64,000 bases of DNA, from contig CAJINV010000001.1 of assembly GCA_905178155.1 (NCBI GenBank), forward strand, positions 13,328,635-13,392,634. Reading direction: 5' to 3'. Both the position numbers and the translations under genes were made by a program. Origin of the DNA: Amoebophrya sp. A120 (lineage: Eukaryota > Protista > Dinoflagellata). The notes beneath the pieces were generated by a model. It had not been told where the DNA came from, searched no databases, and saw only the letters and a list, made by a program, of their open reading frames with translations. Positions 1 to 51,763 of this stretch are shown here, piece by piece; within the stretch, counting starts at the first letter, position 1; the number at the start of each line of letters is the position of its first letter.

Positions 1-2960
1 GAACGCCATAGCACGGTAAACGTCCTTTGAATACGCCGTCCAGAAACAGCGCGGGGAAACCAACTCGACACCCTTGCCCGGTATGGAACTGTCAGGATCG
101 AAATCGACAAAATCGAAAAATTTGTAATGCGTGAAATGTAGAGCACGTATGGCCTGTGTTGGGGAGCAAGCAAATGAGACCGGTGGCAAGCCTGTTTAGG
201 GGAAGGCGTTGCGCTGCCAGAGTACCATGACAGGAGCAGTCTTCTTTGCCCAAACAGCATGACAGACTGGATTTTAGTGCTTCCGAAATTTGTCATGCGC
301 CACTTGGAAACTGAGGCTCCAACTGGTATCGATTTTATGCATCACAAGTTTTTCGATTTTGTCGATTTCGATTCTGACACTTCCATACCCGGACTTGGGT
401 TGTTAAAACCAATCACATACGCCGGATCCTGCAGGAGATAAACCTCGATTTCCTCGTCCGGACAGAACTGCTTGAAAGTATGGAGTCTGCGGTTGTTCAG
501 CGACCAGAGTGATCCGTCCTTCTCGTTTCGAATCACCCAGATTTTCGGAATGTCGCGCACCTGCGTGACGCCCTGGTCCAGCTCGTTCAAAGTCTGGTAG
601 ATGGACCGCCCGTCGTGGAATCGAGTCCGGATGCTGCCCTGCGTGAAGTTGATGTTTTTCGGTTTTTCCCAAATCACCACTTTGAGAACCTTCCTAACCG
701 GCGCCTTGTAGACCGGCGTGGGACTGAGCGACGCAGCGGCGGAACGCGCTCGTGAAGTAGAACGCCGCGGAGTTTGGAGCACTTGCAGTTCGGAAGATTT
801 CTTGTCGTCTGTGAGCGTTTCGTGGCCAGAGTTTTCTGCGATGCTGGCATCGGCCTTGTTTTCCTTCTCAACACGAAGCGCGATGTCGCTTTTCGTCACG
901 CGGAGCGCGTGGTCTTGCGGATCGGCTGTCCTGTTGCTTGTTTCCGGTTTCGTTTTGCTGACACCCTGCAATCGCAGTTGGTCCAAGACAGGCACAACCG
1001 GATTTGCTCGATACTGCTGATCGTTGAAGGCTGAGTGTCCCCCCTGCGACGTGATTCGGGACGCGGCCACCGGAACTTGGGCCTCTGGGGGAATGTGCGT
1101 CTGATGCGGCTGATACACAGCCGGGAGCGGTTTCATCTCGTCGCCTGCCATCAGGCTGCTGAGCATGGTGAACTGGGCAGGCTGCAGCGCACTCATCATG
1201 ATCCGGTTTTGCGTTGCAACCACCTGCGCACTCTGCGCACGCCGCATCTGCCGCTTCTTGGCCTCGACGTCGTCCTGCATCACTACTATATCACGGTTTT
1301 CGTCCGACTGCTCTTCTTCTGACGTCGTGTTCGGCGCGGTGGTTGTGCCATTCACACCCCCTCCCGCTTGTGCTGCTGAACTCGGTCGCAATGCAGATTG
1401 CCCTTGGACGTACGTATTTTGATGCTGGCTCACCATCTTGATGTGTTTCCAAGCAGTTTTGCTCTTGTCTTCTTTGGTTTTCGAAGGTGATGGCGCTGCA
1501 CTACCAGACGCTGAACTTGACGACACCGCCCCAGCAGACTGCGGTCGTGATTTCCGACCACCAGTAGACGCTGCGGGTCTACCCGTTGTCACAGACTGCC
1601 GCTTCAAGCTAGTACCGAGAAACAGGTCCGAGCTGTATCCAAGCGCTGCAAGTTTCTCTTCGGTGAAGGCGGCGATGGAAAAGTCCTCCTGCTCTAGGCT
1701 GCTGTGCTGCCTATCCTTATCGTTATTCCTCTCTCGCGTTGTCGTAACTTTCGTACCGTCCTGCCGCTCAATGACGTACTCTTCATCGGTCGGCGTTTCA
1801 TCGCTGACGGTCACGATTTCATCCGGAACCAAATCACTGTAGTCTGACGGAGAGGAGAGTGGCTTGTCCATGTTCGCAATATGAAGCGGAGTCGTCTGCG
1901 GCAAGCGCACCGTGCGCGGAAGCGCCGGGCGGGCAGACATCGCCTTTCGCTTTGAGTCGTTTTTTTTTGACGATGTTGCTGCATTCTTTTCAGCCCCTGG
2001 AGTAGTGCCACTTTCCGGGACGTTCCCACCGTTGGTCGTCGCTGCACTGGCTCCGATTTTATGGTCGTCATCCTCATTTTGCGTGTCGTCGTGAGATCGC
2101 TCTTCCGCATGTGCAGATGCTTTTGCGTTCACATCAGTTCCTCCAGAATTCCCTTTCATCTCCGGCCGCGGTTGCCACGTATCGGGCAACACCATGAGCA
2201 CCTCCCTGCCTGCGGACAACGCCCGTGCACGCGGCTGCGATGCAGTCCGTGGTGCGAACAAGCCGGTCGAAAAGCGCTGCGGCTCCGGGGTCGAACCTAT
2301 TCCCCCGTCAACAGCGGCTTCGTTGTTAAAAGACGGTCGTCGCGAGTTCGAACTGGTACGGGGCGTGGTCGGGGTCCGTGCCCGCCAAGTCTCTGCGGAA
2401 CCAACGGGTGCGACGCTCGGGCGGGTGGTCGAAGAGGTTTGTTGTCCTGCCGCCTGCCCCCTCGGGTCGCGCACAATCAAATCAGTGGTGGGTTTGTTCT
2501 TTACATCGAAGCTGTGCGAGAAGGTTTTTGCTGAAGAAGTTGAGGAAGCTCCAGCTGACATGTTGACCAATCCGACGCTTGCCTCCTCTTTTCTTGGCTT
2601 CATCAAAGCCTGCTCCGTCGCGGCGGCCTGCTGCTGGCGACGGGATATTGCGCGCTTCAGCATGATGGCGTCGTCTTCCAAAACCAGCGGCCCACCCTCA
2701 TCGAACAATAATCCCTTGGGTGCGGTCGCCCGCGCCAACGCAGAGACTGTGACCGTCTTCTCTTTGTTCGCAATGGTTCGGCTGTACAACCGGGTCGCCG
2801 CGCTTTTGGAACGGATGAAATGCCGACTGTCGGGGGAGCGGGACGTTAGTTGCGCGGTACTACGCAGGTTCGTCGCGTTCACGTTCAGATTCACGCACGG
2901 CATCGTTGGCGCTCGGGTGCCCACAATCAAGGGCTTCTTATTGGGGCTCGAGTATACCAT
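1..2960 (-). CDS. Large low-complexity protein with a ParB/Srx-like domain (3' end runs out of window); interrupted by introner E1
   Basis: 872-aa ORF 342..2960. Motif INFTQGSI..RF.DGRSI..T...L...IPKIWV...WSLNNRRL resembles ParB-like domains. Removing E1 plus one TSD continues the frame as NPSPG|KGVELVSPRCFWTAYSKDVYRAMAF to the window edge. Confidence 0.75.
82..387. mobile_element. Introner E1: 306-bp TIR element acting as a non-canonical intron
   Basis: Left end TATGGAACTGTCAGGATCGAAATCGACAAAATCGAAAAATTTGTAATGC pairs with right end GCATCACAAGTTTTTCGATTTTGTCGATTTCGATTCTGACACTTCCATA. Direct repeat CCCGG at 77-81 and 388-392. Confidence 0.9.
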
Positions 2961-3968
2961 GGTTTGGTCGAGAAGTTGAGCAGAGTAAGTAGTAGTTGTT
3001 ATTTTAGGCGTGCATTCGCATCGCGCTCCAGCAGTATCCCAATCAGAAAGTTAAGAACTGAATCCAAACCCGTAAAACGTATTGAAAAAAATCCCCATAC
3101 TGGATTTTCAGAAGCGAAGTCTCGTTTTCCTCTGTCAAAAAACCGCAGATGGGCCCTTTCTGCTTTGATACGGCAGACGAAAAAACGAAGATGAACATTG
3201 TTGTTGCGACGATTTTCTGTGAGATCTTCCTGTGATTCCAACAAAAAGTTTACCTTTTCCAGAATCCTAGAATCTCTACGAGAAAAACAGCAGCTGAAAC
3301 TGACAGACAGAAGGGCATCTGTGAAATCTTACTTTACGAAGCCCATCCACGACATGAAAAAAATATTTTCCCGACGATTTTGCACCACGAGATGATGATG
3401 AAACGAAAAAAAAACACGAAAGTAGTTCGAGCTGATCTTCAAAATTGCGTTCATTGTGGCAGCCCCTTCTACATGTAAAACACAAAAACGTCAAATACGC
3501 CAAACTGCACTTTTCTGTCTGACGGCCCGGCTCTTCTTTGAAACCGCAGAACCTTGCGCGTCTGCAATTGGCTCCACGCAAAACTGTTGACATAAATTTC
3601 GGCGGTCTCCACGATTTCGGTGTTACAATGTCGACATAGTTTCAAGTCGTTTCGAGGTATTCATCTTCAGAGAGGTCATAGGAAATTTTCAGTCTGTGCG
3701 ACGAAGGTAGTGAACCGTTTCATTTTGAATAAGTAACCATAGTTTGTGAATCTGCCTGCTTTGTGTACACAGATTTCTAATTTTTTGCTTCTGTCTGAAG
3801 ATAACTGTATCCAAGTTCGATTCGCTCTTGTTAGTGTTAGCTTGATCAACTAACTTTCTCTGTTTGTGAGTTGTTGAATCTCGGGTCTGTTAGTTAGAGT
3901 TAGTGTTAATGAAAACTGGTATATCATTGTGACATCATAGTACAAGGCCTCTCTTCTTTTTTCAGTAC

Positions 3969-6498
3969 CTACTCGTCCGCCGGCGGCGCCGGTTGACCAC
4001 CCGCGGGTGTGGGCTCGCTGCACTCCGGTAAGTCCTCCGGTTCGTTCAACACGGCGGGGGGCGCACAGTAAAAGAAGTTCGTGCTCCTCTTCAACCCATA
4101 GCCGACGTAGCTGTTTGCAAGAATGCAGGCGTTGGGTTTCGACAAGTGTTGCATGATAGATTCTCGTTGATTTGGATGAAAATAGAAGGAAAAAACAAGT
4201 TCACTCGAGCCGAAAAAAATCTTCTATCAGTACATGTTCACAAACGCCGATCCCTTGGAGACGCAGAAGGCACCGGGAAACTTGGAGGAGCGACAGCTGA
4301 CGACTGCGCCGGCATGCGAGCGGAAGGCCCAATCCTTTGACTTGACGCCACGGAGCTGTTCCTGCACGGGGTCCGACGCTTTCTTGGCTTCCTGAGCAGC
4401 GAACGCCTCTGGCTCCGCCTCGGCATCGATCTCCATGTAGGAGCAGCGACCCGTGCGGAGGATGTGCGGCACGCCTGATTCGGTTTTTGCATTAGATCAT
4501 TCTCGCTAATTGAATAGCCTTGTGAGGTCCTCGCACGAAATTTGATGTCACGAACTGAAACGCAGAACAAGTTCGTAAACTACTACGTCAAAGGTCTTCA
4601 TCACTCAGTACAGTGCATCCAGCCCTCTGGCTTGAGCAGTGTGCTCTGATCGGGAAAGACGAACTCCTCGGCTTCTGCGATGCTGCCGTCGTCCTCGCTG
4701 ACGGTCAAGTACCCCTTTACGTTCAGGACGGTATCCGCGGTAATTCTTGCGATCTGGGCGCGCAAGAGGAGTTTTTCCGGCGCGGCGAAGTAGGGGACCG
4801 TGACGACTGGGGCTATCAAATGCAAAAATGTCTGGGTCTGGAAGATTGCGAGTTTTGTCATGCTTGTCGGGCATGACCAAAAAGTTTGTGATGCGTGTCC
4901 AAGAAGAGACCCTTTCGCCTGTCATGCAAAAACGCAGTTTGTCATGCGAAAAACGCAACACAAAGAAGCGCAGATATTTCTCATGCTTGGTGGTGCATTA
5001 CAGAGCATTCACTGTTCCCAACGCAGCATTACAAGTTTCCAGACCCAGACATTTTTGCATTGGATAGGGGCCTCGAGGTCGCCGGTGAAAATTTTCTTCA
5101 ATCCTCGTGCGGCAACGATGCTCTCCGGGGTGGCGTCGGGTAATCGCACCCAGTATCAAAGAAAAAAAGTTCGTCACGATCACTCATGCGCATTCTTGCA
5201 ATACAAAATTGTTTGTCATGCGTAAAAATGCATCACAGCCAAACTTCATTAGGGATTTCCCTAGTGTTTCTGCAATACAAGGAAAGTTTGTGATGCTGAG
5301 AAAATTTGTAATGCAAAACCTGCAAGTTAGTGACTGTGACAAACTTTTTTCTCTCCATACCCAGTTCGGCGTTGTTACTGAGTTGGTCACCTGGGGAGTG
5401 AGTTTTGGATAATTTTTTTGTGTGATTTTCTTATCCTTGCACGATCGCAATATGTATATGACTCAAGAAGTACTAGTACCTACAAATAAGACATGAACTA
5501 TGAAATGGCTCGTCAAAAGATTTTCAAACCGGAAGCTAAACTATACCCAGTATGCGAACATGTTTGACCCACTCCCGAGTGGCTCAAAGCCTGGATTTTC
5601 TGGATCCTCCTCCCCAGCGGCATCCAACTGCCCCTCTGCAATGTAGTAATCAGCGCCGGAACCGCAAATCTTACCCCAGAATCGCACCTGTAATCATTTA
5701 TCGATGCATTTTTTTTGAATTGGCACCATCCAAACATTGCGCCGCGACTTGGAATTAAAAGAGATGGATCAGGGGAAATTCGTACCTTTTTCAACCCCTC
5801 TGTTGTTGCGGCAAAGTGCCTGAGACTGTTCATAACGGCATTGGCCTTTCCTGATGAAAACCCGACTCCCGCCCATGTCAGCACGTCATTCTCCTCCAAA
5901 AAGTTTGGCAGGGCGCAGATTGCTGTAAGAATGGAAATTTGAATTTCGTTCTCGTCGAGACACCATATATATTAGACACTTCAATAAACGCTAGTACACA
6001 AAAGCAGTCTACCTATCGAACCAGGAGAAAAACCGACAACACCAAAACGCTAAATTTTGCATAATTATACGCAGAAGCGCGCCCTCATCGTCTTTCGGGT
6101 CCGAGGCGACTTTCTTGACGGAGTCAACATCTTTGAGCTTCGAGGCAATCTCCTCCTCTGTGAGGGTGTGGTCGTAAGCTGATTTGGCCTTCGGTGGCGC
6201 GAGCTTCAGATTTCTTGAGTACACCTCAAGTGCATGGAACCTGCAAGAGAAAATAGAAACGTGCAGAGGCTTAGCCTTTTTTTAGCAGGGCGAGTCCTCT
6301 ACTAAAGCCAAGAACTGAACAAGAACATCTAGTCCTTCACATTATGCAGAGCGAGAGCACGCAAAGAGACGAAACTTTATCGTACGCTTTGTCCGCCGAT
6401 GGGTGGCCTGCGATCTTCTTCAGAAGCTCCTTCAAGTGCTTGGACACCCCGGGTCCCGCTGCCTTCAGCAGCTTCTCCGCGTCTACGACGTCGGGCAT
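3969..6498 (-). CDS. RSPH4: Flagellar radial spoke head protein RSP4/6 family (multi-exon)
   Basis: Spliced product contains VRFWGKI.G..ADYYIAEG, YWVTNS....WVRLPDATPESIVAARGLKKIFTGDLEAPV, LLRAQIARITADT, VVSCRSSKFPGA and IYVGYGLK. GT-AG introns (e.g. 5391..5546) plus introners E2 and E3. Confidence 0.9.
4814..5066. mobile_element. Introner E2 (family A): 253-bp TIR element in an RSP4/6 exon
   Basis: 30-bp TIR TATCAAATGCAAAAATGTCTGGGTCTGGAA / TTCCAGACCCAGACATTTTTGCATTGGATA. TSD GGGGC at 4809-4813 and 5067-5071. Excision joins GDLEAP|VVTVPYF; the unspliced frame hits TGA. Confidence 0.93.
5154..5359. mobile_element. Introner E3: 206-bp TIR element in an RSP4/6 exon
   Basis: Imperfect TIR TATCAAAGAAAAAAAGTTCGTCAC / GTGACAAACTTTTTTCTCTCCATA. 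TSD CCCAG at 5149-5153 and 5360-5364. Excision joins TTPNW|VRLPDATPE. Confidence 0.88.
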
Positions 6499-7099
6499 GA
6501 TTCTTTTTTCGCTGAAAAAACTCGACTTTTCAACACACGTCTTCCATTTCGGCTACGAATTCATTTTGAATCGAAGCTGAGTTCTTGTTCCCAGAGCACG
6601 AGTTTGCTGTAAAGACAAAGAGCGAGACGACAAGTTTCTCTTGCCCATGAGGAGTCGCACTCGTTTGCGCAGACATGAGGAACGCGATCAAAACGTCTCT
6701 CTACTCCAGTCTCTCTCCGTGGTCACTCCAGTGATGAAGACGGACCAAGTATTATTCAACACTTCTACCCTGATTCGAAAGTGTTCCAAAGTACTTTCTC
6801 CCTTAAGCTTACCAGCAGTTAGTTTTCAGTACGACTACGAATCTCAGCCCGAAACGTAAATAAACCTTGCTTTGTGCCCCTACACGTCGAACAAAGTGAA
6901 ACTCCGTACCATCTCCGAGATACCTTGCATGCATTGCAAATCCGTTTTCTTTTCGTTTCATTTCTGCGCCTTCTCGCTCGGGGTTTGTTTCTTTCATTCA
7001 GAACCAAAGTAGATTGGAAACATTCATAATTGTACATTGAGCGCCAGAAAACGTCAGAAAATGGGTCTGGCAAGGGCCTTCGTTCGTCTGCGAGCGAGT

Positions 7100-9072
7100 T
7101 TACCTCCATCTACGTCGGAGAGAAGGTAGTACGCGGGGGGGGGGGGGGAAAGCGAAAGGGAATGCGAAAGGGTATAATAATGGAGCAGAAGGTACATCGT
7201 ACAAGTAGAACAAAAAGGCAACTTTCATACATTTTTTTTCTTACTGCTTAGCGTAATGCGTATACAGCTGATCCGTCGATCGCATTATGTCCGTTGGCTT
7301 CTTGATTGCGGACTTTTTATCACCGCTCGTCGCTTTCCGCAGTTTCGCTTCCATCTCTTTTGTGGAGGGCTTGTAGGCATCATACAGGGCCACTGGCGGC
7401 GGCGCAGATTCTCTCACAGGCTGTGGCGGCGCAACCACGACTGTTTGTACCGCACTTCTGTTTGGCTCGCGGGCCACCAGCGCCCGGGCTATTGCGCGCT
7501 GGTACATCGCTTTCAGGTAGCGGCGAGTCTCAATCTGGAGTTTTGACGTTGAAATCAAATGACGTGTGAGTTGACCGAGCATTTGGATTTGCATCAGATG
7601 TTCCAAAACTCCGACTACAAACAGGCACAAAAAACAGAATCGCCCAATCTTACTTTCTCCTTATCCACCACTGGCTGTGGCATTTGCGGCGACAGGGACT
7701 TTGTCTTATTGGCTTTTTTCGCGAATATCTTGCTCTCCTTTTTTGCAAGCGCGATCTGGTTTTCCATCGACCAGTAGTCATCAAGCTGCCCTGTTAATTG
7801 CGAGCTCCACGGATCCTCTCCGCGTGCTTGGTTTTTCAGCTTCAGGTACCATGCTGGCTTTTTGTTGGAAACCTGTGTGAGAAGATCATAGAGAAGGTGC
7901 AATACATTGCCTAGCACCAGCAATGCCGCACGTAATCGGAGTATCCAAACTGATATCTTCACGACGTGTGTACAGCGACGCGCCGTACGCGGTAGTTCTA
8001 GTTTTCAAATTGAAACGCAAATGCTCACTATACCAATAGCTGCAGATCCTCTGCTTTGAAGCCGCCGCCCTTCTCGTCGTTTCCGCCCCCGTATTCGTCC
8101 ATGAAATTTATGTAGTTGTCGATCGTATTGGTTGCGCGTGTGATGTCCCGCAGCATGTAGTGTGCAAGCATGGACTTTGGCTTCCCGAATTTCTTTTCGT
8201 GGGTCTCCTGCAAAATCCTGTCACGGACTTCCTTTCGCTTCTCCACGTCTCGCTCGAGGAACAGCTGTAATTGGTATTGGATTGTTTAACAATAAATGCG
8301 CTGAAGCTGTAACTGATGTTGATCTGCGTTTACATTAGCTTCACATTTCCACCCTCGAACAAAAACACTTATGTGAAAAACAATACCAGCTCCAGCATGG
8401 AAATGCTGCCATCCCCATTCACGTCGCAAACGGGAAACAGACGGTCAGATACTTTCTGCGGCGTGTTCAAAAATTCCGGACAGTCTGGATCGTCACAGAA
8501 GCCCTGGGACTGCATGGCCAGACCGAACTCTTCCCTATCCAGTCGCCCGTCGCGATTGTAGTCGACCTGCGCAAACATGTCAGCGGCACCGCCGAATTTG
8601 TCGCAGAAGCGCTGGCAATACTCCATCATGAGAAAGGAGTCCATGTCGACCTCGTCGAGCGTTAGAAGATTGGTGCCATCAGAGTCCAGTTTTTTCCACA
8701 GATCCACTGCGTCTTCGCCAGCGGCGCCCAGGGATGTGAGGCCCTGCGATTTAGAATTTTGTTGGAATTCTGCATCAACACAAGGAAGCACTGGGCTTTG
8801 TTTGGCTTGCATTGTCTGCGCAAGGAGAGCTACTGCATAAGCGAAACGAAAATCCAAATAGTACTTACCTTGCAAAACTTCGTGAACGTGACGTCGCCGA
8901 TGCAGTACGGATCGAAGTATTTTCGCCACGCTTTCATGATGACACCTTCCCCCTTATCCAGCAAGACGCCGCGGAGGTACTCGGTCTCCTCCGATTGCTC
9001 CTCCTCGTCTGGGGGAACCATACCCGCCTCCTCCATCAGCGCCTTGGACCGCGCTGACATCAACTTCGCCAT
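7100..9072 (-). CDS. EF-hand calcium-binding protein (multi-exon; ends approximate)
   Basis: EF-hand loops DSDGTNLLTLDE, DYNRDGRLDREE and DVNGDGSISMLE. ORF pieces 8830-9072, 8369-8929, 8028-8246, 7615-7962 and 7241-7630 are joined by GT-AG introns. Confidence 0.75.
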
Positions 9073-10109
9073 GGTGCCCGGTGGTGAGAAAGCGCGTGGT
9101 CAGGTAGCCACCAAATTGGGGTATGTACACTTTGCAAACTCCCCGGCCGTTGCCGCGGTGGGTCGCTCGTTCTTCTGCGTAAAAAATTCGTAGCGACAGG
9201 ATACTGCTCTGCGTGCTCGTCAATGCGCTTTGATGTTTCCTGGTGCTCCTCGTAGGTCTATGGTCGTCCGGTAGATCCAAAGAAAAGTTTGACTCACGTA
9301 GTTGCGCGTACGTGTGTCGGTATGAAGATAGATGTGTTTTTCACAGCAGAAACGTGCTCATTTGATATTCGTAGAAGTTTGAGAGGTTGTACACACAGAG
9401 AGCATTATCATACAGTGTGAATTTCTTGCTAGACACTACAGGTACAGCTTCCTACATTTTGCTATTCTTTGTTGACTTATGTGTGGGAATGAGCAAGAAT
9501 ATATCAGTTCTCATCGAAGAAAGGTCCTGACACGTAAGTACATGCGCAGGAACGAGTCTCGGCGATTTCAACCTCCTGCTACAACGACCACGTCTCTGGC
9601 AAACTTCCTTGTATGACGTCTTCTACTCGCTCGATTACTTTCGCTCTACCGTACATTTTTTGAAAAGCGTGTCTCGCGCGCGTGTCTCGATGAGCCTGTC
9701 AATCCAAAACGAAGACGATGCCTTTAGCATTAACGCGAATTTCTTCACATAGAGAACAGCGTGCACCTTCAGTCTTAGCCTCAGCCGGTACAAACACCAA
9801 AGTGTCTCGACTGCGAAAAGAATTGTGATTGTCTTGGTTAGATGTCGACATAAAGTGACACTTTTGACATGTATTCTCTGGGTAGTTTGTCGCTGATATA
9901 CTTGGTACTTACAGAAAAGGCAGCTTTGGCACATTTCGCCATCCCGTGGGGAACAGGAGATGTGTGATAGGACCTTAGTCGAAATCGAAAATCGTGGGTG
10001 GGTAAGTACAGGTTGGTGACACGACAATGACGAAAGGCCATAAGCCGATCGCGGTGGAGCTTTTCACGACGACCGGGCGGCCGCACACGGCCTTCGTCAA
10101 CACGCGCCG

Positions 10110-12347
10110 CTATCCCAGCGTCATCCATGGCGTCTTTTCGTTTTTCTGAACCTTTTTCAGAGCCTCTAGACTGGGTGGGGCGTTCATGTCAAGCCGTTTT
10201 ATTCGGTTTTCCTCCTCTATTCTCTGAAGCCTTCTTTCGGCGTTGCGCGCACCATGCTTCTTCCCGTGGAACTTCCAAGAGAGTTGCCTAAAGGCCTCTT
10301 TCGCCGTGTTCACGCGCCCAAACTCATCCTTATACTCGATCTTCACGTCGCCTTCGTTGGTTCCAATATCAAGCACGCCGCCCTCGGCGGTGTAGCGTTT
10401 CAGGTGTGAGCCTTGATCCTTGCCAAACCCGTCGCGCTCGCGTAAATATAGCAGGGCACTCGCCATACTGTTGTCCAAAGGCTTCTCGTGCAACTGCTCC
10501 TCCACGGCCTTCTGTTGCTGCTCTGAGACCACCGGCGCGCTGGAAGAGGAGCTGCTTTTGTGCTTCCTGGAATCGTTTATTCTCCGCTCGTTCGCGGCCT
10601 CGTCGTCGTGTAGTTTGAGCTTGTTCTCCCGCTCCTTCTTGAACCTGTGGATTGAATGTATTGCCATCAAGTTTGATCGGTAAATCGACTGAGCAGAACG
10701 CAAATCATGACAAGAAGCATAAATATGAAACGAAAGGAAAAAATCTAAAATTAATACGTTTCCATCCCCGCATAGGTTTCCTGCTTCGTCTTCTCCTCTT
10801 TCTGGTCGTGTGTCTGTACCGTGAGACAGAACTCGCTGGTCGCGCTGACCAACCGACTGTCTTTGTCCCTCGCCAGACCCGAGGATGCTACCAGAGCCTC
10901 TTCCGGTCGCAGCAGCTCCTGGACCTTTTTCAAGTCCCGTTTTGTCGTGGCGGCGGTCTTCTGCCGGCGGAGCTGCTCGTACAATTCCGGATCATCCTCG
11001 TCGCTGTCAACGTCGGCGCGGACCCTGAATTTCTGCATTTTCACCGGTGGTCGGTCAAACTCGTCCTCGTCGATGTTCAATTGCTTTCTTTTGTTTTGCT
11101 TCTTGGCCTGTTTCGCGATTTTTTTCCGGAATTTCACCTCTTCCGCCTGGTCCATGACGTCCGACTGGAATTTCAGTGTGCTGATTTCTCCGTCCGCCTG
11201 GTCGGCAAGTGCCATTTCCTTCAGTTTCTGCTCGGCCACGGCTGAGTGCGCGTCCGCCATCGTGAAACCAGTGGCGCGGGTGGGGAGCTCATCGTACTTC
11301 GCGAGGATGTCGCCGGTTTGCTGGTCACCGTGGTAGCCTCGGGAAGGGTCGTAGTTCGCTTTTTGCTTCTTCCGCTCTTCACGTTGTTTCTGTTTGGATC
11401 ATCGATCGTTTTGGAGCGCTAAAATTAATCGAGCGGCGCTGCAGAGACACAGAATTTGAGTCAATCTGTTGCTGCTGAAAAGTGCACTTTACTTTTTGTT
11501 TTTTTCACCAGGCAACCATCAAACCAAATAGAAATACCAGTTTAAACGCGTCAGTCTTGTTAATGTCTTCCAGCAGATCCATCTCGCTGTTCAGGGTGCC
11601 GTCGAGGGTTACTATCCTTTCGTCCGCAAGCGTCAGAATCGCCTGCTCGCCCTCCTGGAAATCCGCCATGTCGTGCGTCACCTGAGAATCGATCATGAAT
11701 CAACTCTAATATGCGTTGTCGTCCTTTTTCCCGTTCAGTTAAAGAAAATCGAAGAAAAACAATTCATTATCATTGTCAGAAGCAGAACGCCAAACAAAAA
11801 GCTGAAAGAAAATACCCTGAAGTTATCCAACGACGGTCCGTCTCCCGCCTCCTCTTTTTGCTTGGTCGCACGGTTCTTCGCCGCGGCGCGCTCGAGGTTC
11901 CGCGAGCTTGTCGTGTGGTGGCTGCTGGCCCATGCCTGCAAATCATCGTCATCGTCCAGGATGTCGCCGAGACCGCGACCGCTTGCAAGTTTGGCCCGCT
12001 CCCTGTTGAGAGATTTTGGTTCGCAATGAATCTTCATTTTCTACCGCAGAAAGAAATGGATTCAGTTTCGGCTCGTCACAACACGTACACAGCTAAACAA
12101 AGTAAATTCGCAAGAGCAAAAAAATGTACCTCTTCCTCTTGTCCTGCTGCTTCGCGGCGACTGCATCGTGTTTTGCGGCGTCCTTCTTCGCTTTTTCTGC
12201 CCAGTGGTCTAATGGTGCGTCCGAGGTTCCGTCTACCGCTTTGCCGTCTTCTTCTATTCGGAGAGGTTTTAGACCGAGTTTCCTACGCTCCTCGTTCCAT
12301 TCGGCAACGGTCTTGGTGACCTCCTGGGCACCGTCTGTCGATGCCAT
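10110..12347 (-). CDS. SART1: U4/U6.U5 tri-snRNP protein SART1/Snu66
   Basis: N-terminal HIND-like motif TVAEWNEERRKLGLKPL, VTHDMADFQEGEQAILTLAD, and C-terminal EYKDEFGRVNTAKEAFRQLSWKFHG. Four GT-AG introns traced. Confidence 0.9.
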
Positions 12348-13188
12348 ATTTCTTCTAAAGCACAAAATCTCCGTGCCCAGAAACGTGAGCGTGAGCGTGA
12401 CTGAATATACTTACAGATTTGAAATTTCGTGACAACGTCAGGGGCAGGTTTCTGAGTCACTACACCAACACGAATGGGGGTCAAACACGATTCATCACTT
12501 GGACTTTCTGATATTGTTCAACGCAAAAAAAATCCATACTAACTTATCGAAAAACATCAGTATTTCATTTTGAAGTAAACATACCTAGATCGACCCTGGC
12601 GGTTTCAGGTGCGGCTATCACTTTGGAATGTCATCAATACGCGTTTTATGTCCATATTCATGGTCCTTGCGCACATCATTCATACTTGAACAAGACCAAG
12701 AGCAAACCGAAATTGGCAATCCAATATTACTTCCTCGCCTACTCTTTTTGGAACTGAAAAATCATCGTGACCATGAGCAAGAACAACCAGCTTAATTATA
12801 ATTTGGAACCTCAACATCTTCCACGACTTCTTTGCTATATGACGCTTGTTTGATTTTTTTGTTTCTAGAATTTTGGTTTGCCACAGCTCTGATAAAACCT
12901 TGCGCAATTCTTGATTTCCATATTTCTTGTCTTTTGGCTTCAGAGTATGATCAACTTCGCGACACGGCATCAACCAGAAAGAGACAATATATAAGATCAG
13001 GATCTTTTTGTAAGTTCAAGAACTTGCAATCAGAATCACCTACAGTCAATTTGAGTTTTTCGCAAGTACATTGTTTCCTTGTTCGGTGCTGCGATAGTTC
13101 AGGGTTTAAGGTTTATAGGACCAGGGTCTTCTGTCGTGCACATTCATCGGTAAGTGGAAGACTGAGGTTCTTAGTTCCGTGAAATCAG

Positions 13189-14211
13189 CTACACCGACGG
13201 CGACGCAGCTGCTTGCTCCGGAGTCTGGGCGACCGGAGGCGCCGCGACCGGAGGCGGCGCGACCGGAGGCTGGTCCTGGGGGGGCACGGCCGGTTGTTCT
13301 TCTAGTTGTTGGTGATTGTCCAACCCATGCAAACGCTGGTTAAACTGATCCGCCATTTGATTCACTCCGTGGACACCGGCACCCACACCACCTGCAGCAA
13401 GATCCAATGCTCCTTTGTAGCCTGCCAATGCTCCTCCGTAGCCTGCGCTCACAGTATTTCCCACGGCAGTAGTTGCATTGTCGAAAGTATTTCCAGCACT
13501 GTTTGCAGCCCCTGCAACGGCCGCTCCCGTACGGCTAGCCGCGTTTCCAATTTCACCAGCAGCACTTGCAGCTGTCTGGCGAGGGTGCATCAACCAGCTG
13601 CCGCCTGTACCCATCGCATTGCCGAATGCTGCTGTAGATGACCCCAAAACTCCAGTTGCTTGAGTCCGCAAATCTTGAATATCATGTGCAATTCGACCTT
13701 GGGCATCTCCCAAAGCGGCTCCAATGTCCGCTGTATCTCTGCGTATCCTGTCACTGGCTTGTCTTTGCAAAACCGCGGCACTCTGTTCAGCATTCTCTAA
13801 TCCGGTTTCAACTATTTCACCGACTGCTCTGAAGGTTGTAGGTCGTGTTGTGCGACGCGTTAGGTGACTACTCGGAGATGAAGATGACACGGAGGATGAT
13901 GACAAGGATTCAACAAAAGCGGTGTTCTGCAAGGATTTCAATGGTCTTGAGAGTTCAAGCTCGCTTCCTGCTGTGCACGATGAAATCTTGCTCGACGAAG
14001 CGGCGCAGCTTTCGGTGCTAGTGCTCCCAAACTCCTCGTTTTTATGAACCAACCAATCCGTGAAGTTTTTGTGCCCGTGCTGCAGGAAGCTCGAGAAGTC
14101 CTCAACAATCTGCTGTTTGTCGTACATGATGTCGAAGAACAGAACTCGTGTCAACTCGGTACCGCAAAAGTTCGAAGTACGGATGCCACAGGTGCCGCTA
14201 GCAGAGAGCAC
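13189..14211 (-). CDS. Hypothetical protein; possible PWI-like segment followed by an Ala/Gly-rich region and a Pro-rich tail (may have upstream exons to ~14900)
   Basis: 340-aa ORF. QQIVEDFSSFLQHGHKNFTDWL loosely resembles PWI helices. A GTAAGT donor near 14425 suggests an upstream exon. Confidence 0.5.
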   Translation of the reverse strand: MLSASGTCGIRTSNFCGTELTRVLFFDIMYDKQQIVEDFSSFLQHGHKNFTDWLVHKNEEFGSTSTESCAASSSKISSCTAGSELELSRPLKSLQNTAFVESLSSSSVSSSSPSSHLTRRTTRPTTFRAVGEIVETGLENAEQSAAVLQRQASDRIRRDTADIGAALGDAQGRIAHDIQDLRTQATGVLGSSTAAFGNAMGTGGSWLMHPRQTAASAAGEIGNAASRTGAAVAGAANSAGNTFDNATTAVGNTVSAGYGGALAGYKGALDLAAGGVGAGVHGVNQMADQFNQRLHGLDNHQQLEEQPAVPPQDQPPVAPPPVAAPPVAQTPEQAAASPSV

Positions 14212-15949
14212 GGGAACTTCTACTCCTGGTCGCTCTCGAAAGCAGGAATGTAGTTGAGTTCAGAAGCCCCTGAGTTACAAAATTTTTTTCGTACATTGTG
14301 ACGTATCTATGGACCTGTCCATGTCTCCGGTTCGAGCGGCAAATGCGAATGCCAGCATCTACTTCACATTTCACAATCACAAAAAAGTCTAATATATAAG
14401 TAATAAGTTACCTATATTATACTTACGACACGACGACGATCGAGTGTCGACGATCTACCAGCTGCCTGAGCACGATCTCTTCATTCATTGCAAGCAGAGA
14501 GTACCTGTCGAGGCGTTTCCAGCGAGCCTCTTCTGCAAAAAAGTCTGACAACTCGATCCGCCTCACAGCCAATGGCGTACTTAGGTGCACTGGATTTCGC
14601 AACCCAGGTCCCGGAACAACTGCCTGCAGACCTAAATAAAGTATCACGGTCGGGCACATATACAGTTTGTGTTGAGTTAGGCATGGGCGTCCATAAAATC
14701 AATGATATCCGGACGACGCGTACCGAATCCAGCATCTATTTCAATTTCTACTGAAAACAGAAACAGAATCAAAAGCCAATACCTATTGCGGCGAACGCTC
14801 GAGCCGAAGCGGCAATCTCAATGATGAAGAGCACCAGACAGTTGCAGCACTAAACCTAAAGCCGAAGCACGGTATCCTCGGTTGCGAAATCAATCGTCCG
14901 CGGAAAGTAGCAATTGTAGTCCACGGTCGCGAACGCAATAATGTAAATTTTCTCCGAATTAGTATTTCTTGGAAAGTGGTCAATACATAGGTATTGAAAG
15001 TAGGAGTCCAGTTTTTCTGATTCTAATTCACAAAAGGAAGACGCTCAGCTGAAACGACGCGAAAGCAGGACCCAACTAAATTTTGGTTGATCTTCATGCA
15101 CATGTCGAATCGTCGTGCCTAAACGAGTTTTCATTGAGAGAGATAGCTGTAAAACTTCGATTTTAACCAAGTTGTGACGAGGTTAAGCTTTTGCATCGAT
15201 TGAACGGTCGCCGAGCTTCTACTTTAACTTTGATGACTTCGCTCGATTTTTCACCCTTCCGGTCCGGCGACGAGCCTCATGATTACACTCGTCACCGCTC
15301 GTTGCAACCCCCATCGACCCCACACGACACTTTTCTAAACGGAATCGACCTCGATCACGGATGCATTGCGATTGCCCGACTCTTTTTCATGATACATTAT
15401 CTACAAATATCTCGCAACATAGTGATTCACGAGAGCAAGCAGATGTACTTCATCTTAGCTTTGTTCACGAGATACTTTAATTGCCGCTCCGACAGTCTAG
15501 CAATTCGAACACTATTTGTTGAGCTCCATGATGCGCGCACTTACTTACTTACCGTTGAAAGTGGCGTTGCCGCTCGACTGGGATGTCCATCCTACCGAGA
15601 AGCTAGTCGCTCAAAACATCTCGAGTTGCAAGACGAAAGCACTCTGCCTCAGGCAGCAACCGGGCCAAAGAGTGTCGTGCAACCGCTGAAGATTGATTCC
15701 TTTTTTATTGCGAATTAATGCTTGTAGGCACGCTCACGCAGGGACGATATCACAATTCACAATTATTACAGTGTACGTTGCCAAAATCCGCGGCGACGTG
15801 CCCGCCTCGAAATCTTGATTTTGACTATGCTGCAACACACCGACATATTGCGGCGCACCGCGACAACGCCGCGCAACCAGGGAGGTGCGAAGACACACAT
15901 TCTTGTGCGCGCCAGCCGTCGTCACCGGAGCGAACAAGTAGCTTGTGCC

Positions 15950-18900
15950 TTATGTGCTAGCCTGATGCACTACAACCTTCACTTCCTTATCGTACGGCTC
16001 CTCCCTCTGGTGCACGTCCAGCAAGCTCAAGTACTTTGTCAACACCTGAAAATTTACCCGCAAACCCTCCGGGTTGTCTATCACGGAGCTACTGCTCGTT
16101 TCTATGAAACCGATCACTTGCACGTCGTGCCCGAATTCCTGTAGCATCCGCACGTACCGGATACTCCCGCCAATCGCGTGGGGATGTGACGCACCATACA
16201 GCTCCCTCGTCGCCTGTATCAAACCGCGATGCGGAGCACTTCGCGGATTACAGACAAAACCCTCGTACACGTCCGCTTCTCTCCGGTCGAAGATCCAGTG
16301 GAAATCCAAGCGGCCGAGTTTATTTGCCAGAGGTGCCGTGTCGGCGGTGCCATAAAGGGAGTATTTGGAATACGGACCGCGGGCGGGAAGCCGGTCCACG
16401 TGCTCGTTGAGGAGAGCGACCGCGCTTTCGAGCTGTTTTTTTTGTACATGAAAGGCACTCTACTCGCAGTCGCATCTTCAAAATGCCATGCATAGATATA
16501 ATTGACTTTGAATGCATGCCGATTGTATCAAACATGTGCAGTACTGTACCTTTCTCCTCGCTTCCTCTGGCCTTACGAACGGAGACAACCGAACGTCCCC
16601 AACCGCCGTGCAGTGCCCTGGTATCGTGTCACCACCTCCGTCGCAGCTGATTTGTGTAGGCTTCATGGTGCTCGAAACTTCAAACCCGTGCCGCCTGTCC
16701 TGCACCTGCGTTCCCTGCGTCATTTCGCGGTAGAACGTCCCTTGCAACCGGTCGAGCGCCGCCGTCAGCAACTCGAGCGCGTTGATACCCTGCTGCGGCT
16801 GCCCAGAGCCCGCGAGCTGCCCGAAAACCCCAAGTTTCCAGAACAGCGCAGACGTGGAGCCGCAAACTGGATGGCCGCCGGACCCTTGGAGGTAGAGAAC
16901 AGAACGGAGGTCGGAAAGGAGGCCGTCTGGGGGGTTTGTTGATTTTGAATGTGATCTTCAGACAACTTCGTCATCTTTTCATTCTCCTCACGACGGAGTG
17001 CAATTACCTCTTTTCCTTTTGGTGCAAGAAAAACCAAGCTAAGAATCATACCTTCCAGCATCCTGTCCACGCCAACGTCTCTACTGGCACTGTCCGGACT
17101 AAAAACCACTACGACGTCGCTTTGCAGAGCGGGTTTTTCCGCTGCGAACACTTCTAAAAGGCCAACCAGCAGTGCAACATGGAGCAGCTCAGGCGGAATC
17201 GCGGAGTGCTTGTCGTCGCTATGGGAGGATGAAGAGCCTCCGCTACTTCGTTGTAGTTTATCCACCGCTTCCCGCAGACTCTCGCCGATAGGGAAAAGAG
17301 TGAGAAATCCGACCGGCGCAAGCTTCTTGCTGGTCGTTGTGGAGCTCGTGGAGTAGGTTATTCGCAAATTTGCGAGTGGGCTTATTGGCTGGTCAGAAGT
17401 AGACTGATGTGCTGGCACCGCTTTATCAGTGCTTCTACCGTTTCCGTAGTCGAGAACATCAACCGTCAACCGGCGGGAGTACAGCTTCTCGACGTAGGAC
17501 TTGATCACGGTAGGTAGTGCTGGCAGGGCAGCAGCTGCAAGCTGCGCTGCTGGTGGCGCTGCCGCGCCGGAAGAAGCAGCCGCACTGCCCGAGCTCGTTG
17601 TCGCGGCGTCAGTGGGCTGCTCTACTGCACTTGCACTAGCGGCAGGACTATCCGAAGCATCTGCTATTCTGGATGCTAGATTAGTTTCTATCGCTTCCAA
17701 GAAATTTTGTGCGGATTTGAGAATCGAAAACCTTCTTGCTCGCACGCTATCCATCGGTGACGGGTGTAGAGAAGCGTAATCTGGAACGAGTGAAAGGCTC
17801 CCGTCGAGTAGAGGCTTGACTGGCTTCAATGGTTTCGAAGCGACCGGCTCTTGCTCCTCCTAATGTGAATGTTGAGTATCTATGTACTTAAATGCTTTTT
17901 TTTCCCTTTGCTTTACATGCCTCATCTTCGTGTCGTGTACCAACCAAACAAAAAATCATGTGCGCAGCATCAGCATGCTCGCTTACCTCCTGGTCCCACA
18001 GTTGAAATCGCTGCTCCCCTGCGTTTGTCAACTGTAAAAATGTCTGTGTCTGGAATCAATGTCATGCTGATTTTGAATTGTAAAAAAAATCTGTATTGCT
18101 TGAGCAGCAAAGAGAGTCCAAGTTTTGCTACACGGAAAGAGCATTTGTCATGCAGTATAGGCATCAGGAAGCCCTCACAAAATCTGTGATGCTAGGGCAT
18201 GCATCACAGACATCAGGAGTCATGCAAAATGTGCATGACAAACCTAGGGCCATCAGGAGTCATGCAAAATGTGCATGACAAACCTTCGTCGATCGATTGT
18301 GCCACTAGGGCCTTGTGTTCTGGCTACTCCGGATCGCAATCGATGGAGGGCGGGACCTGCACCGGCGACAGGCGCTACCCAACCAACCAACCAACCAAGC
18401 CTGGCAATCTTCCAGACCCAGACATTTTTACATTTGATAGCGTTTGTCTGGTGGTATAACGACGGACGGTTCCCTCCAAACGCAGACCCGGAAGACTTGA
18501 AAATATGCGGCAGCCCGATCGTCGACCCATCGGATCGGTAGGAGGATTTCTTCCGCGGCTGCTTCGTTGGGGAGTGTTCCTCCTGCCAGTACTCCACAAG
18601 CAAGACCAGCAGCGCAAACGCGATCGCTATGACCAAAAACGATACGAGCAGGCATCGCCAGGAGCAAAAACAATAGTTGCCGTCCGCCCGTCTGTCACCC
18701 CGGCGCGAGAACCCCGACCGCGGCCCGGATCTGCTTTCCGTCCCAGGCCGCCCGCCGGGGTCGTCGACCGTGACGGAGCGGTTCTGCTTGTTTCCGTCTA
18801 TCCCAGTTAGTTGCGTGTCCAAGCCGATCAGCTCCTGCGTGAAAACCGGTTCTTGCCGCTGTAGTTGTTGACCCCCACTGATTACACTGTCCTCAGGGGG

Positions 18901-19098
18901 CGCGCTTCTGGCGGACTGCGGCGCACTAGTCCGTTTGGAAGACGAAGAGGACGGCCACATGGGCGGCTGCGGGTCTGGGTTCTTGTATTGCGGGTAATTT
19001 GGACCTGGAGGTAGTGCCCCTGCAGCGACCCCTTTCTGTTTGGCCACTCGCCCCTTCGATTTGATTCGCTCAGTTTTATCGGATCCAAAAAAACCCAT
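15950..19098 (-). CDS. Type II membrane protein with a degenerate M20/acetylornithine-deacetylase-like domain; contains introner E4
   Basis: TM segment CLLVSFLVIAIAFALLVLLV. After E4 removal the frame reads HQTNA|GEQRFQLWDQE, then an intron, then EEQEPVASKPLKP. Later motifs INALEL, GFEVSSTMKPTQ, IPGHCTAVGDVRLSPF and IGGSIRYVRMLQEFGHDVQVIGF match plant-type acetylornithine deacetylase as recalled. Confidence 0.75.
18026..18439. mobile_element. Introner E4 (family A): 414-bp TIR element
   Basis: TIR TGTCAACTGTAAAAATGTCTGTGTCTGGAA / TTCCAGACCCAGACATTTTTACATTTGATA. TSD GCGTT at 18021-18025 and 18440-18444. Excision restores the frame. Confidence 0.9.
18211..18285. repeat. Perfect 35-bp tandem duplication (period 40) inside E4
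   Basis: CATCAGGAGTCATGCAAAATGTGCATGACAAACCT at 18211-18245 and 18251-18285. Confidence 0.95.
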
Positions 19099-49147: not shown

Positions 49148-51763
49148 TTATGGTTTTGGCTTTTTTGGGGGCCTTTGGAGTATCGTCTCGTCAACCTTCT
49201 TCACACTGCGTTCGGCGTCTCTTTTGAAAACAAAGACATCCTCTCCTATGCACGGTCCTGAGCCAGCTTGGTTTGAGATACACTCCGCAGTCCGTCGGTC
49301 GCGCGTGTCTTCGAGCGCGGCGCGCAGGACAGGAATCGCGCCGATGCGTCCTTCCCGAACGGCAAAAAACCGCGCGAAACGAAACATTCCGGAAATAGCG
49401 GCGGAGAACATACCGAAGATTCTACCCGACATCAGATACCCTGCAGCTTCTGCGAGCGCCGCACGCGTGAAGCTGGTGACGCCTTGCTGTTGACTGTCAT
49501 CGAGACCGCCGCCCTCCGCTACGAAATGGAGAAGCGCTCCAATCTCTCCGTATCCTGGTTTCACAGCGACCTGCTGCCAAAAAGTAGCCTGCAAAAAATC
49601 CCAGGCGGGAATGCCCAAAGGCTTCCCGTCCGACAGGCTGCACACCGCCCTGGGCTGCATTTCCTGTTTCCTTGTTATCGTCCCGTTTTTCGCGGTCGTT
49701 TCGGTCGTCACCCGCAGAGCGGGGCTGACGAAGCCCGGACCGGAGCTGAGTTCCATCCAAACGGACCGCCGGTAGTCCCAGCTCTGAAAGAGCTCGTCCA
49801 GAATGTAGCAGGTGTCCAGTGCGTGATCCGGGACGATCTGGTAGCGCCCATTTTTCCCCGTCTGCCCGGCGTTGTACTCTTTCTTCTCGAAGAGCATGTA
49901 GCCGAACCAGGAGTGGAACAGCTGCTCCAGATCGACGTCCGTCGGCCCCCGCGAGACTTTTCGGCCAGGCTCCCCCAGTAACGGACACACTTGTGCCGCG
50001 TGCGAAGTGACCACAACAGTGTGGAGTTTCGCATTGTGGTTTTTCTCAATGTACCGCTGCAGGTACCGCTCCGCACCGTAGGTCCTCTGGAAGGTTTCGC
50101 CAGGGTTACGGAAAAAGGATGTGGAGGAATCTTCGTGGCGTGGGCCCAGCGGGTAATTTTGGAACACCGCGGTCTTGATCAGAATGTCCACACGGAAATC
50201 GTCCATGCTTTTCACCACGTCGCTAATCTGAAGATTTTTACTTTGGCTTCGATTTTTCTCAACGGGCTATGAAAACCGGTCACCAGGATCAGTTGTACTG
50301 CTACAAAGACAATGAATGAAATGAATTCATTAGCTTTAAACGAGGTAGCTCGGAGCATCAGGTTTTCTGCTACTAAGCATGTACTCGCTGGTAATCTTCC
50401 TCTGCTCCAAAATCGTAGATAAAGCACTTCAGGCGTGTGAAATCGGGGCGAAGAATTGTGTGGATAATGGAGTCACACGCCGTCATCGAAGGCACGCCAA
50501 GGTAGAGCATTTTTGCACGCCCCCACTCAGATAACCATTTGGCCGTGTGGTAGCCCACACCGTGCGTTGCGTCAGTGACCAAGATATTGCGGCCCTGTAG
50601 TTGTTCGATAAATTCTTCTCGAACGATCATGCCGATTCTAAAAATCTTCTTGACATTTTCTGATTTGACAGAGAGGGATTCCATAGTGTAACGAAAAACA
50701 ACATACAACAGTACAACTTACGCCGAATTTCTGGTGCGTTTCATCGTAGGTTTCCAGAAACGCTTCTTCCAACGGCCTGTCCAGCACGGTTTGGGCAGCA
50801 AAGGTGAGCGCGATGGGTACCACTACAGCCGTCCAGTAGAGGAATCCTATGACGAACGAGCCCCGACACGCGATGTTTTTGACCGTCAGCTTTTTCTCAT
50901 TGGGCACGAGGTCCTGTGGCCGCAAAAGCAACGCCTTCACGTTGTGCGTTTTGGACATGTAAATTTCCGCTTCGAGTTCGCCCTTCCACCAACAATAGCT
51001 GGAGTAGTAATTCCACATGAAGGACACAACCACGACCGCGACGATAACACCGAGAGTACCCTGTGCCGTTTTGTCGACCGCCAGCGCATCGTCCGGGCGA
51101 CCAACTTGCACGTCCCGATTCCCGAAGTAGTGCTGGACAATGGCCACGTAGTAGTCAGGTCCGCGGAGAAACACAAAATACCCGACGGAGGCGAACAGCA
51201 ACGCGAGGTGCCGGGAGAGCCAAATCAGGTCGAAAAAGCACCGGAAATGACCGTCGCCAACGAGCACGAGGAAAAACGTGAAAAACAGCGTGAACAGGAA
51301 GCCAAGCATGAAATCGCCGAACCCCTACCAAATGCAAAAATGTCTGGGTCTGGAAAAATTCACGTTTGTCATGCTTGTCTGGCGTGACTCTTAAATCTGT
51401 CATGCACGTTCCCAAGAGCTCCGTTTTTCTGTGATGCAGAGGCACAGTTTGTCATGCAGAATAGGCAACACCTAGGAGCTCAGAAACTTGTCGTGCTGAG
51501 CCAGCATTCGTAGCCTCATCATGAGACGCTACCCAGCATCACAAGTTTCCAGACCCAGACATTTTTACTTTTGATAACCCCACACGCCAGACGAAATCCG
51601 GAGTAGCGTCCAGGACTGCCGCCGCCGCCGGCTGCCTTTTCGCCTGCGCAAGTAGGGAGTCCACCTGCTCTGGTAACGCGGAGAGCCGCTCGAGCAGCTG
51701 CTCCGACAAACCATTCAGGCTCAGCATCGGCGGCGCGCTGTTGGAACCGGTATCCAGTCCCAT
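49148..51763 (-). CDS. Multi-pass membrane protein with an SDR/Rossmann-like domain; contains introner E5
   Basis: Several hydrophobic helices in 50750-51309. GRNILVTDATHGVGYHTAKWL resembles the SDR Gly motif. E5 removal joins FVWRVG|FGDFMLGFLF. Confidence 0.65.
51326..51576. mobile_element. Introner E5 (family A): 251-bp TIR element
   Basis: TIR TACCAAATGCAAAAATGTCTGGGTCTGGAAA / TTTCCAGACCCAGACATTTTTACTTTTGATA. TSD ACCCC at 51321-51325 and 51577-51581. Colinear with E2. Confidence 0.93.

What the first reader, a model, noticed from the sequence alone, without database searches (positions are those of the whole stretch)
77..51581. Five TIR/TSD transposon-like insertions in exons that must be removed without canonical splice sites
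Seen: E1 (82-387), E2 (4814-5066), E3 (5154-5359), E4 (18026-18439) and E5 (51326-51576) each have TIRs and an exact 5-bp duplication. Removing element plus one copy (311, 258, 211, 419, 256 nt) restores the frame, in RSP4/6 through conserved motifs. Sliding the junction across the duplication on the coding strand gives at best GT..GG (E1, E3), CC..AG or GC..TA (E2), GC..AC (E4), GG..AG or GT..GG (E5), never GT-AG, GC-AG or AT-AC. Neighbouring introns in the same genes are normal GT-AG. Established: inverted-repeat introners and abundant non-canonical introns are reported in Amoebophrya, and to my knowledge their excision mechanism is unresolved. Inference: a second, structure-guided RNA excision route in which the TIR stem juxtaposes the two duplications and one copy is removed.
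Basis: partly seen in the sequence, partly recalled or inferred. Interest (0 to 1): 0.9.

Follow-up and report, generated by a model that had tools for sequence, protein, structure and literature searches.

The report
Hairpin transposon introns lacking splice signals
Five small hairpin-shaped mobile elements sit inside protein-coding exons of a marine parasite, and three are missing to the base from spliced transcript assemblies although they lack normal splice signals; they belong to an already published class that is likely cut out by hairpin-guided splicing whose machinery is still unknown.

Summary
The window is Amoebophrya sp. A120 (two proteins 100% identical). E1-E5 have TAT...ATA inverted ends and a 5-bp duplication, and no slide gives GT-AG, GC-AG or AT-AC. 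RNA-like contigs skip exactly 311, 258 and 211 nt (E1-E3) in 4 of 4 runs (2 samples, 1 study). E4 and E5 rest on annotated proteins only. These are the introner elements of Farhat et al. 2021 (PMC7789003), same strain, where hairpin and alternative splicing were already proposed. Added here: a close relative carries the same families (182 copies in 128 loci). Among 107 oriented copies, 3 allow GT-AG/GC-AG against 4 on the opposite strand, so no selection for splice signals shows. Mutated duplications bracket the cut: 3 of 4 informative sites fit a cut at or one base before the hairpin, which would give an N|UAY donor like the local GUAY; one disagrees. Best reading: hairpin-guided, relaxed U2-type splicing (0.5); a separate Euglena-like route 0.33. 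The scan noted similar introns on other DNA before.

The parts
82..387 (-). E1, 306-bp element, arms about 84 nt; 5-bp duplication at 77-81 and 388-392; own family
   Evidence: RNA joint 76->388, 311 nt, 4 of 4 runs; family copies in L026, L047
393..3047 (-). long exon of the E1 host gene; no Pfam family
   Evidence: covered by RNA-like contigs
4814..5066 (-). E2, 253-bp element; duplication 4809-4813 and 5067-5071; family shared with E5 (73% over full length) and, by arms, E4
   Evidence: RNA joint 4808->5067, 258 nt
5154..5359 (-). E3, 206-bp element; duplication 5149-5153 and 5360-5364
   Evidence: RNA joint 5147->5359, 211 nt; family copies in L014, L027, L109
3567..6498 (-). radial spoke head (RSP4/6-like) gene hosting E2 and E3, with six canonical GT-AG introns; 417 codons when spliced
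18026..18439 (-). E4, 414-bp element; duplication 18021-18025 and 18440-18444; inner 40-nt duplication near 18219-18279
   Evidence: annotated protein P0002 fits only 419-nt removal; no RNA joint seen
15953..19098 (-). E4 host gene, 786 aa, peptidase M20 dimerisation domain (P0002)
51326..51576 (-). E5, 251-bp element; duplication 51321-51325 and 51577-51581
49151..51763 (-). E5 host gene, 691 aa, no Pfam family (P0001)

Best explanation
These are short, high-copy elements with TAT...ATA inverted ends and a 5-bp duplication, likely non-autonomous DNA transposons, that are missing to the base from spliced transcript assemblies (E1-E3) and are likely removed from pre-mRNA by a relaxed U2-type spliceosome guided by the hairpin rather than by GT-AG. 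Shown: insertion anatomy, exact loss of element plus 5 nt, need for that loss to keep the frame, and indifference to duplication sequence and orientation. Predicted: the arms pair into a stem that brings the two duplication copies together. Inferred: the 5' cut would fall one base before the stem, so that the element's own end gives an N|UAY donor (local canonical donors are GUAY), and the 3' cut would be set by distance, four bases past the stem, with no AG needed.
For: Exact joints in 4 of 4 runs, E2 and E3 in one contig with six canonical introns. Frame lost if kept. In a close relative, 91 of 106 complete E2-family copies have a perfect 5-bp duplication and 12 have 4 of 5. Of 107 oriented perfect copies, GT-AG 2, GC-AG 1, AT-AC 5, against 3, 1, 2 on the opposite strand; 22 allow neither a GY start nor an AG end; random insertion gives a canonical pair in 8.6%. 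Both orientations occur (41 and 31 of 72). Local donors: 6 of 6 begin GTAC or GTAT; a cut one base before the stem gives N-TAY in 112 of 112 (this follows from the conserved end). First two bases of the arm deviate in 0 of 74 free 5' arms and 4 of 94 free 3' arms (p = 0.13). Mutated duplications: left copy carries the conserved residue at L070 (position 1), L076 (position 2; 17 of 17 motif matches) and L067 (positions 3 and 4). Codon-phase excess (56 of 123, p = 0.016) would be phase 0 at this register. PMC7789003 (section 10) finds U2, U4, U5, U6 and 83 of 89 spliceosomal proteins in A120 but no U1 snRNA; PMC13326754 (introduction) states that the U2 spliceosome removes non-canonical introns in Fritillaria.
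Against: No lariat, branch point or factor was observed. L080 points the other way: the right copy matches the A120 orthologue at position 3, with 115 of 115 flanking residues identical. With free +1 and free 3' dinucleotide, the first-last base pair that splicing needs (PMC13326754, section 30) would be random: G..G or A..C ends were possible in only 33 of 65 copies, against 29 on the opposite strand. A long stem over both intron ends is usually inhibitory to spliceosomes (own knowledge). A cut four bases before the stem gives a YA-N acceptor in 111 of 112 and the same phase excess, so end motifs cannot decide. The 5'/3' asymmetry is not significant. The relative's copies have no RNA support, and their strand was called by a codon model (128 of 182 passed).
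Confidence: 0.5

Rival explanations
1. A dedicated, non-spliceosomal (or separate-spliceosome) route, as proposed for Euglena nonconventional introns: a nuclease would cut both strands at fixed distances from the stem base and a ligase would join the exons.
For: No GT or AG bias at any register; both orientations work; all families share the TAT end and most an A-tract at positions 11-15; U1 snRNA not detected (PMC7789003). PMC12501133 (discussion) argues for distinct factors and circular products in Euglena.
Against: No such enzyme was looked for or is known here. The Euglena signature is met by 0 of 112 elements at any register. Weak hints that the 5' end is read as a UAY donor. A U1-70K homologue is reported in strain A25 (PMC12787238, passage). 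Shared ends are also what a transposase needs.
Confidence: 0.33
2. U2-type splicing in the Fritillaria manner, with the 3' site taken one base past the stem (YA-N) and a free 5' dinucleotide, or a register that varies from site to site.
For: YA-N in 111 of 112 at this register; L080 fits it; 12 of 20 single mismatches are synonymous, as if both copies were sometimes exonic.
Against: L076 and L067 need the left copy at positions 2-4; RNA contigs show one junction sequence per site, but perfect duplications hide the register.
Confidence: 0.08
3. The transcripts come from DNA without the elements (empty allele in the RNA strain, or programmed DNA excision), which would look identical to splicing.
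For: Removal equals the pre-insertion allele by construction; RNA runs (P1) and DNA-like runs (P2) are different studies; the tool gave no look-up of the joined form in DNA.
Against: Exon pieces match with 0 other letters; three insertions of different families would all have to be absent; X5 contigs run unbroken from exon into the arms (366-4836, 5039-5180, 7153-18123); PMC7789003 reports over 60% non-canonical introns from its own RNA and DNA.
Confidence: 0.05
4. Reverse-transcriptase jumping across a hairpin between short direct repeats (falsitron), with the element kept in the real mRNA.
For: The anatomy is the one that produces such artefacts (PMC8240250, abstract; details from own knowledge); all RNA evidence here is contigs of unrecorded library type.
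Against: Keeping E2 or E3 truncates a conserved flagellar protein; the skipped form is one unbroken contig at depth 63-237 in all four runs; tens of thousands of such introns could not be retained.
Confidence: 0.03
5. Nearby cryptic GT-AG pairs are used.
For: In-frame GT-AG options exist near E1 (73-380), E3 and E5 (51325-51583).
Against: RNA joints and annotated proteins fit the exact removals only.
Confidence: 0.01

Closest known systems
Introner elements (IR + DR non-canonical introns) of Amoebophrya sp. A120 and A25 (Farhat et al. 2021, PMC7789003)
   Same: Same strain; inverted repeats, 3-5 nt direct repeats (Fig. S19 legend: 5 bp), TAT + 7 nt + AAA motif, about 240 nt, RNA-supported, hairpin model, alternate splicing proposed, border called unknown.
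   Different: Nothing in kind. E1's arm lacks the AAA. The paper calls families strain-specific (A25 versus A120); here the same families occur in a close relative of A120, and imperfect duplications are used to bracket the cut.
Euglena nonconventional introns (PMC12501133; circles cited via PMC11282704)
   Same: Paired ends, duplication-like repeats, proposed MITE origin, coexistence with GT-AG introns in one gene.
   Different: Signature N3CDG...CHG N5-6|R met by 0 of 112; no purine rule at the exon start; excised form untested here.
Fritillaria borealis non-canonical introns (PMC13326754, PMC11282704)
   Same: TIR + TSD transposon-derived introns removed by a U2-type spliceosome.
   Different: Fritillaria keeps preferred ends (AG-AC, AG-AT) and has U1; here no preferred dinucleotide pair exists at one register and U1 snRNA was not detected.
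Canonical introners of Micromonas, Aureococcus, Polarella (via PMC7789003, PMC11282704)
   Same: DNA-transposon origin, one duplication copy removed with the intron.
   Different: Those take GT/GC and AG from the element or the target; these do not.
MITEs / integrase-like TIR elements of A120 (PMC12130899, family 38)
   Same: Short TIR elements with fixed duplication; a 5-bp stagger would suit an integrase-like transposase (own knowledge).
   Different: No transposase was identified here; superfamily unassigned.

Membership tests
Amoebophrya introner elements (PMC7789003) | Host is Amoebophrya A120 or A25 | tested here: met
   P0001 and P0002, named A120, 100% identical to window exons
Amoebophrya introner elements (PMC7789003) | RNA-supported intron without GT-AG | tested here: met
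   E1-E3 joints; E4, E5 by annotated protein only
Amoebophrya introner elements (PMC7789003) | Inverted repeat at intron ends, hairpin | tested here: met
Amoebophrya introner elements (PMC7789003) | 3-5 nt direct repeat over the exon/intron border | tested here: met
   5 of 5
Amoebophrya introner elements (PMC7789003) | A120 family motif TAT + 7 nt + AAA | tested here: met
   4 of 5 (E2-E5); E1 has TAT but not the AAA
Amoebophrya introner elements (PMC7789003) | Repeated in the genome | tested here: met
   X5 summed depth 5,700-166,000 in element bins against 24-34 elsewhere (not a copy number); E2-E5 73% alike
MITE (non-autonomous TIR transposon) | TIRs, fixed-length TSD, short, no transposase | tested here: met
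   91 of 106 perfect 5-bp, median 262 bp
MITE (non-autonomous TIR transposon) | Cognate autonomous transposase | not testable with these tools
   no genome held
Canonical U2 intron | GT/GC-AG ends | tested here: not met
   0 of 5; 3 of 107 in the relative
Canonical U2 intron | Lariat and branch point | not testable with these tools
   only contigs held the locus
U12 intron | AT-AC ends with minor spliceosome | tested here: not met
   0 of 5; PMC7789003 reports U11/U12 absent
Euglena nonconventional intron | N3CDG...CHG N5-6|R signature | tested here: not met
   0 of 112
Euglena nonconventional intron | Excised as full-length circle | not testable with these tools
   no raw reads on the locus
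Fritillaria-type non-canonical intron | Preferred AG-A(N) ends | tested here: inconclusive
   3' YA-N possible at one register in 111 of 112, but the 5' dinucleotide is then unbiased duplication letters

The most novel reading that the evidence does not exclude
Amoebophrya A120 and its close relatives run a splicing reaction that needs no particular base at either end of the intron: the transposon's TAT...ATA stem acts as a ruler, with one fixed cut register, so any insertion in either orientation is harmless. The register can be read from public RNA reads at mutated duplications, and the enzyme is not the standard spliceosome.
Probability: 0.3. Interest if true: 0.85.

Novelty: already known. 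Interest (0 to 1): 0.42.

Why it matters
The class is published for this very strain, so the five elements are examples, not a discovery. The open question they touch is real: how tens of thousands of introns are cut exactly with no GT-AG. This work adds a control (no selection for splice signals in 107 copies) and a cheap test: copies whose two duplications differ by one base show in ordinary RNA reads which copy is kept, which fixes the cut site without lariat sequencing. A fixed register with free ends would point to a splicing chemistry that makes transposon insertion neutral and could serve as a drop-in intron.

Tried and rejected
No whole genome was held and the relative's record is not held, so no snRNA, transposase or empty-site search was possible. 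No listed holder was on record as RNA. Including DNA-like run X5 swamped the joint table (15 of 208 shown), so E4's joint could not be seen. Viral contigs: 0 matches to the arm. Rfam: 0 families in the window. A relaxed scan found no further convincing element in the window. Bias toward GT or AG on the coding strand: none (p = 0.27 and 0.17). Polarising mismatches by transition direction gave contradictory answers and was dropped. P0003 is a gene call that reads into the element and says nothing on the cut. Of 20 frame-confident single mismatches, 8 change a residue; 3 could be polarised (L070, L076, L080), and Pfam found no family for L015, L042, L107, L110, L118. L067 came from a second set of 15 hand-picked sites, of which L071 (syntaxin) was uninformative and the rest had no family. 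The protein atlas did not answer. Table S4's N-T starts were not used as evidence for the cut, since an aligner placed those borders.
Full report
Observation. All five elements are at the stated coordinates, with inverted arms of 22-84 nt and an exact 5-bp duplication. All host genes read on the minus strand. Sliding the junction over every equivalent position gives no GT-AG, GC-AG or AT-AC, also where the identical stretch is 6, 7 or 9 nt long. The scan found 8 hits against 2-6 in five shuffles, so E3 needs other support, which it has; three long hits are probably chance.

Organism. Exons next to E5 and E4 are 100% identical to NCBI proteins named Amoebophrya sp. A120. The E2/E3 host is a radial spoke head gene (Pfam PF04712, E 4e-9), the E4 host has a peptidase M20 dimerisation domain, and the E1 exon and E5 protein have no Pfam family.

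Removal. Four RNA-like contig sets (2 samples, 1 study; RNA status guessed by the tool) all show joints 76->388, 4808->5067 and 5147->5359, that is 311, 258 and 211 nt. One contig per run carries E2, E3 and six canonical introns together, and its coordinates leave no extra letters. The spliced frame is 417 codons; keeping E2 or E3 stops it at codon 244 or 256. For E4 and E5 I have only the annotated proteins, built from transcript alignments (PMC7789003, section 25); of all placements tried, only 419 and 256 nt reproduce them, and the neighbouring GT-AG option at E5 does not. In DNA-like run X5 the contigs run from exons into the arms, and element bins have summed depth of 5,700-166,000 against 24-34 elsewhere, so the families are highly repeated; the figure is no copy number.

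More copies. A 30-base arm of E2 matched 128 loci of one public assembly (JACKZZ01; scan stopped at its limit) and nothing in viral contigs. One exon there is 87% identical to an A120 protein, so this is a close relative, not A120. Of 136 arm matches, 106 distinct complete elements were recovered: 91 with a perfect 5-bp duplication, 12 with 4 of 5, 3 with fewer (two of these were mis-paired ends). Other families in the flanks, including those of E1 and E3, raised the set to 182; all start TA (a filter required this for the added ones). A codon model trained on the window called the strand for 128 of 182; at its middle window size it got the five window elements right.

Test for splice signals. 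Because the ends are symmetric, the non-coding strand is a built-in control. Among 107 oriented perfect copies GT-AG was possible in 2, GC-AG in 1, AT-AC in 5; on the other strand 3, 1 and 2. A GT start was possible in 44 versus 53 and an AG end in 55 versus 44 (p = 0.27, 0.17); 22 allow neither GY nor AG. Simulated random insertion gives a canonical pair in 8.6%. Both orientations are used (41 and 31 of 72). So, if these copies are spliced like E1-E3, removal does not depend on the duplication's letters. In predicted folds 8-20 of the first 20 arm bases pair in register in the 45 of 112 elements folded (17-19 for E1-E5).

Where is the cut? Perfect duplications hide it. Let k be the number of left-copy bases kept in the upstream exon. 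At k = 4 every intron starts N-TAY (112 of 112), like the local donors GTAC/GTAT (6 of 6); at k = 1 nearly every intron ends YA-N (111 of 112). Both follow from the conserved ends. Mutated duplications in the relative give indirect hints, assuming the exonic copy keeps the conserved residue. L070 (kinase): left copy Phe, Tyr in 5 of 5 shown structures, k at least 1. L076 (aldo-keto reductase): left copy Ala, Ala in 17 of 17 motif matches in 8 of 11 hits, k at least 2. L067 (electron transfer flavoprotein beta): left copy Val as in 1efp_B, right copy with two changes, k at least 4 (one weak homologue, E 0.03). L080: right copy Thr as in the A120 orthologue with 115 of 115 flanking residues identical, k at most 2. 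Three of four fit k = 4 or 5, one does not. The first two arm bases deviate in 0 of 74 free 5' arms and 4 of 94 free 3' arms (p = 0.13); E4's variant end and two weakly oriented copies are also 3'. The first duplication base is a third codon position in 56 of 123 (p = 0.016), which is phase 0 at k = 4 or k = 1. These are leads, not proof.

Mechanism. Shown: anatomy, exact loss, need for loss. Inferred: transposon origin, stem-guided choice of sites. I favour a relaxed U2-type spliceosome (0.5), because most of its parts are present (PMC7789003, section 10), there is a precedent in Fritillaria (PMC13326754, abstract and sections 4, 30), and the 5' end can be read as a donor. Against it, terminal bases would be random and the stem covers both ends. 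A separate Euglena-like route (PMC12501133, abstract and discussion) gets 0.33, although its signature is met by 0 of 112. Empty alleles, reverse-transcriptase jumps (PMC8240250, abstract) and cryptic sites are unlikely.

What is known. PMC7789003 (read: abstract, sections 10-12, 16, 25, 32, supplement passages for Tables S4, S7 and legends; figures not seen) reports over 60% non-canonical introns, 29,850 repeated elements in A120 with IR motif TAT + 7 nt + AAA and 3-5 nt direct repeats, a hairpin model, no U1 snRNA, and an unknown border. PMC11282704 (passages, section 6) reviews it as spliceosome adaptation. PMC12005148 (passages) finds canonical introns and U1 in another Amoebophrya. PMC12130899 (passages) lists diverse A120 introners. 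PMC12621601 (abstract, section 10) reports paired non-canonical introns in diplonemids; PMC12787238 (passages) notes U1-70K in A25. Henriet 2019, Guminska 2021 and Roy 2023 were seen only as cited. Searches listed no paper that fixes the cut site or the machinery in Amoebophrya; subscription journals are not covered.

Verdict. Real, confirmed for three of five by RNA-like contigs, and already described in this strain. The unresolved mechanism and the imperfect-duplication test keep the interest moderate (0.42). Earlier scan notes describe similar hairpin introns in other genomes; I did not check them.

Noticed in passing
window 18406-18439 (right arm of E4), runs X9 and X2: Raw RNA run X9 has about 96 reads that carry this arm with one constant sequence on each side, from another locus, while it covers none of the window's genes; X2 has a contig with the same inner flank. 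An abundant RNA may keep an arm unspliced.
   Followed up: no
L044:701-955 (reverse strand): One element has a 4- or 7-nt repeat instead of 5; frame tests were inconclusive because an intron seems to follow. Such copies would test ruler versus repeat guidance.
   Followed up: partly
loci L001-L128: Many families share TAT ends and an A-tract at positions 11-15; median 262 bp; often two or three elements within 1.4 kb. The same families occur in A120 and in this relative.
   Followed up: partly
loci L001-L128: First duplication base falls on the third codon position in 56 of 123 sites (p = 0.016); cause unknown.
   Followed up: partly
window 18219-18279 and 18375-18400: E4 holds an inner 40-nt duplication and a short CCAA-type repeat, which explain part of its extra length.
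   Followed up: no
window 4111-6385: Canonical introns here start GTAC or GTAT with no conserved +5 G and weak pyrimidine tracts, which fits relaxed 5' site recognition.
   Followed up: partly
window 1-64000: The genes examined and nearly all long ORFs lie on the minus strand, as in the unidirectional clusters reported for Amoebophrya. No Rfam family.
   Followed up: no
L080 / P0003: An automatic gene call reads into the element and ends the protein early: such genomes will be mis-annotated without RNA.
   Followed up: yes
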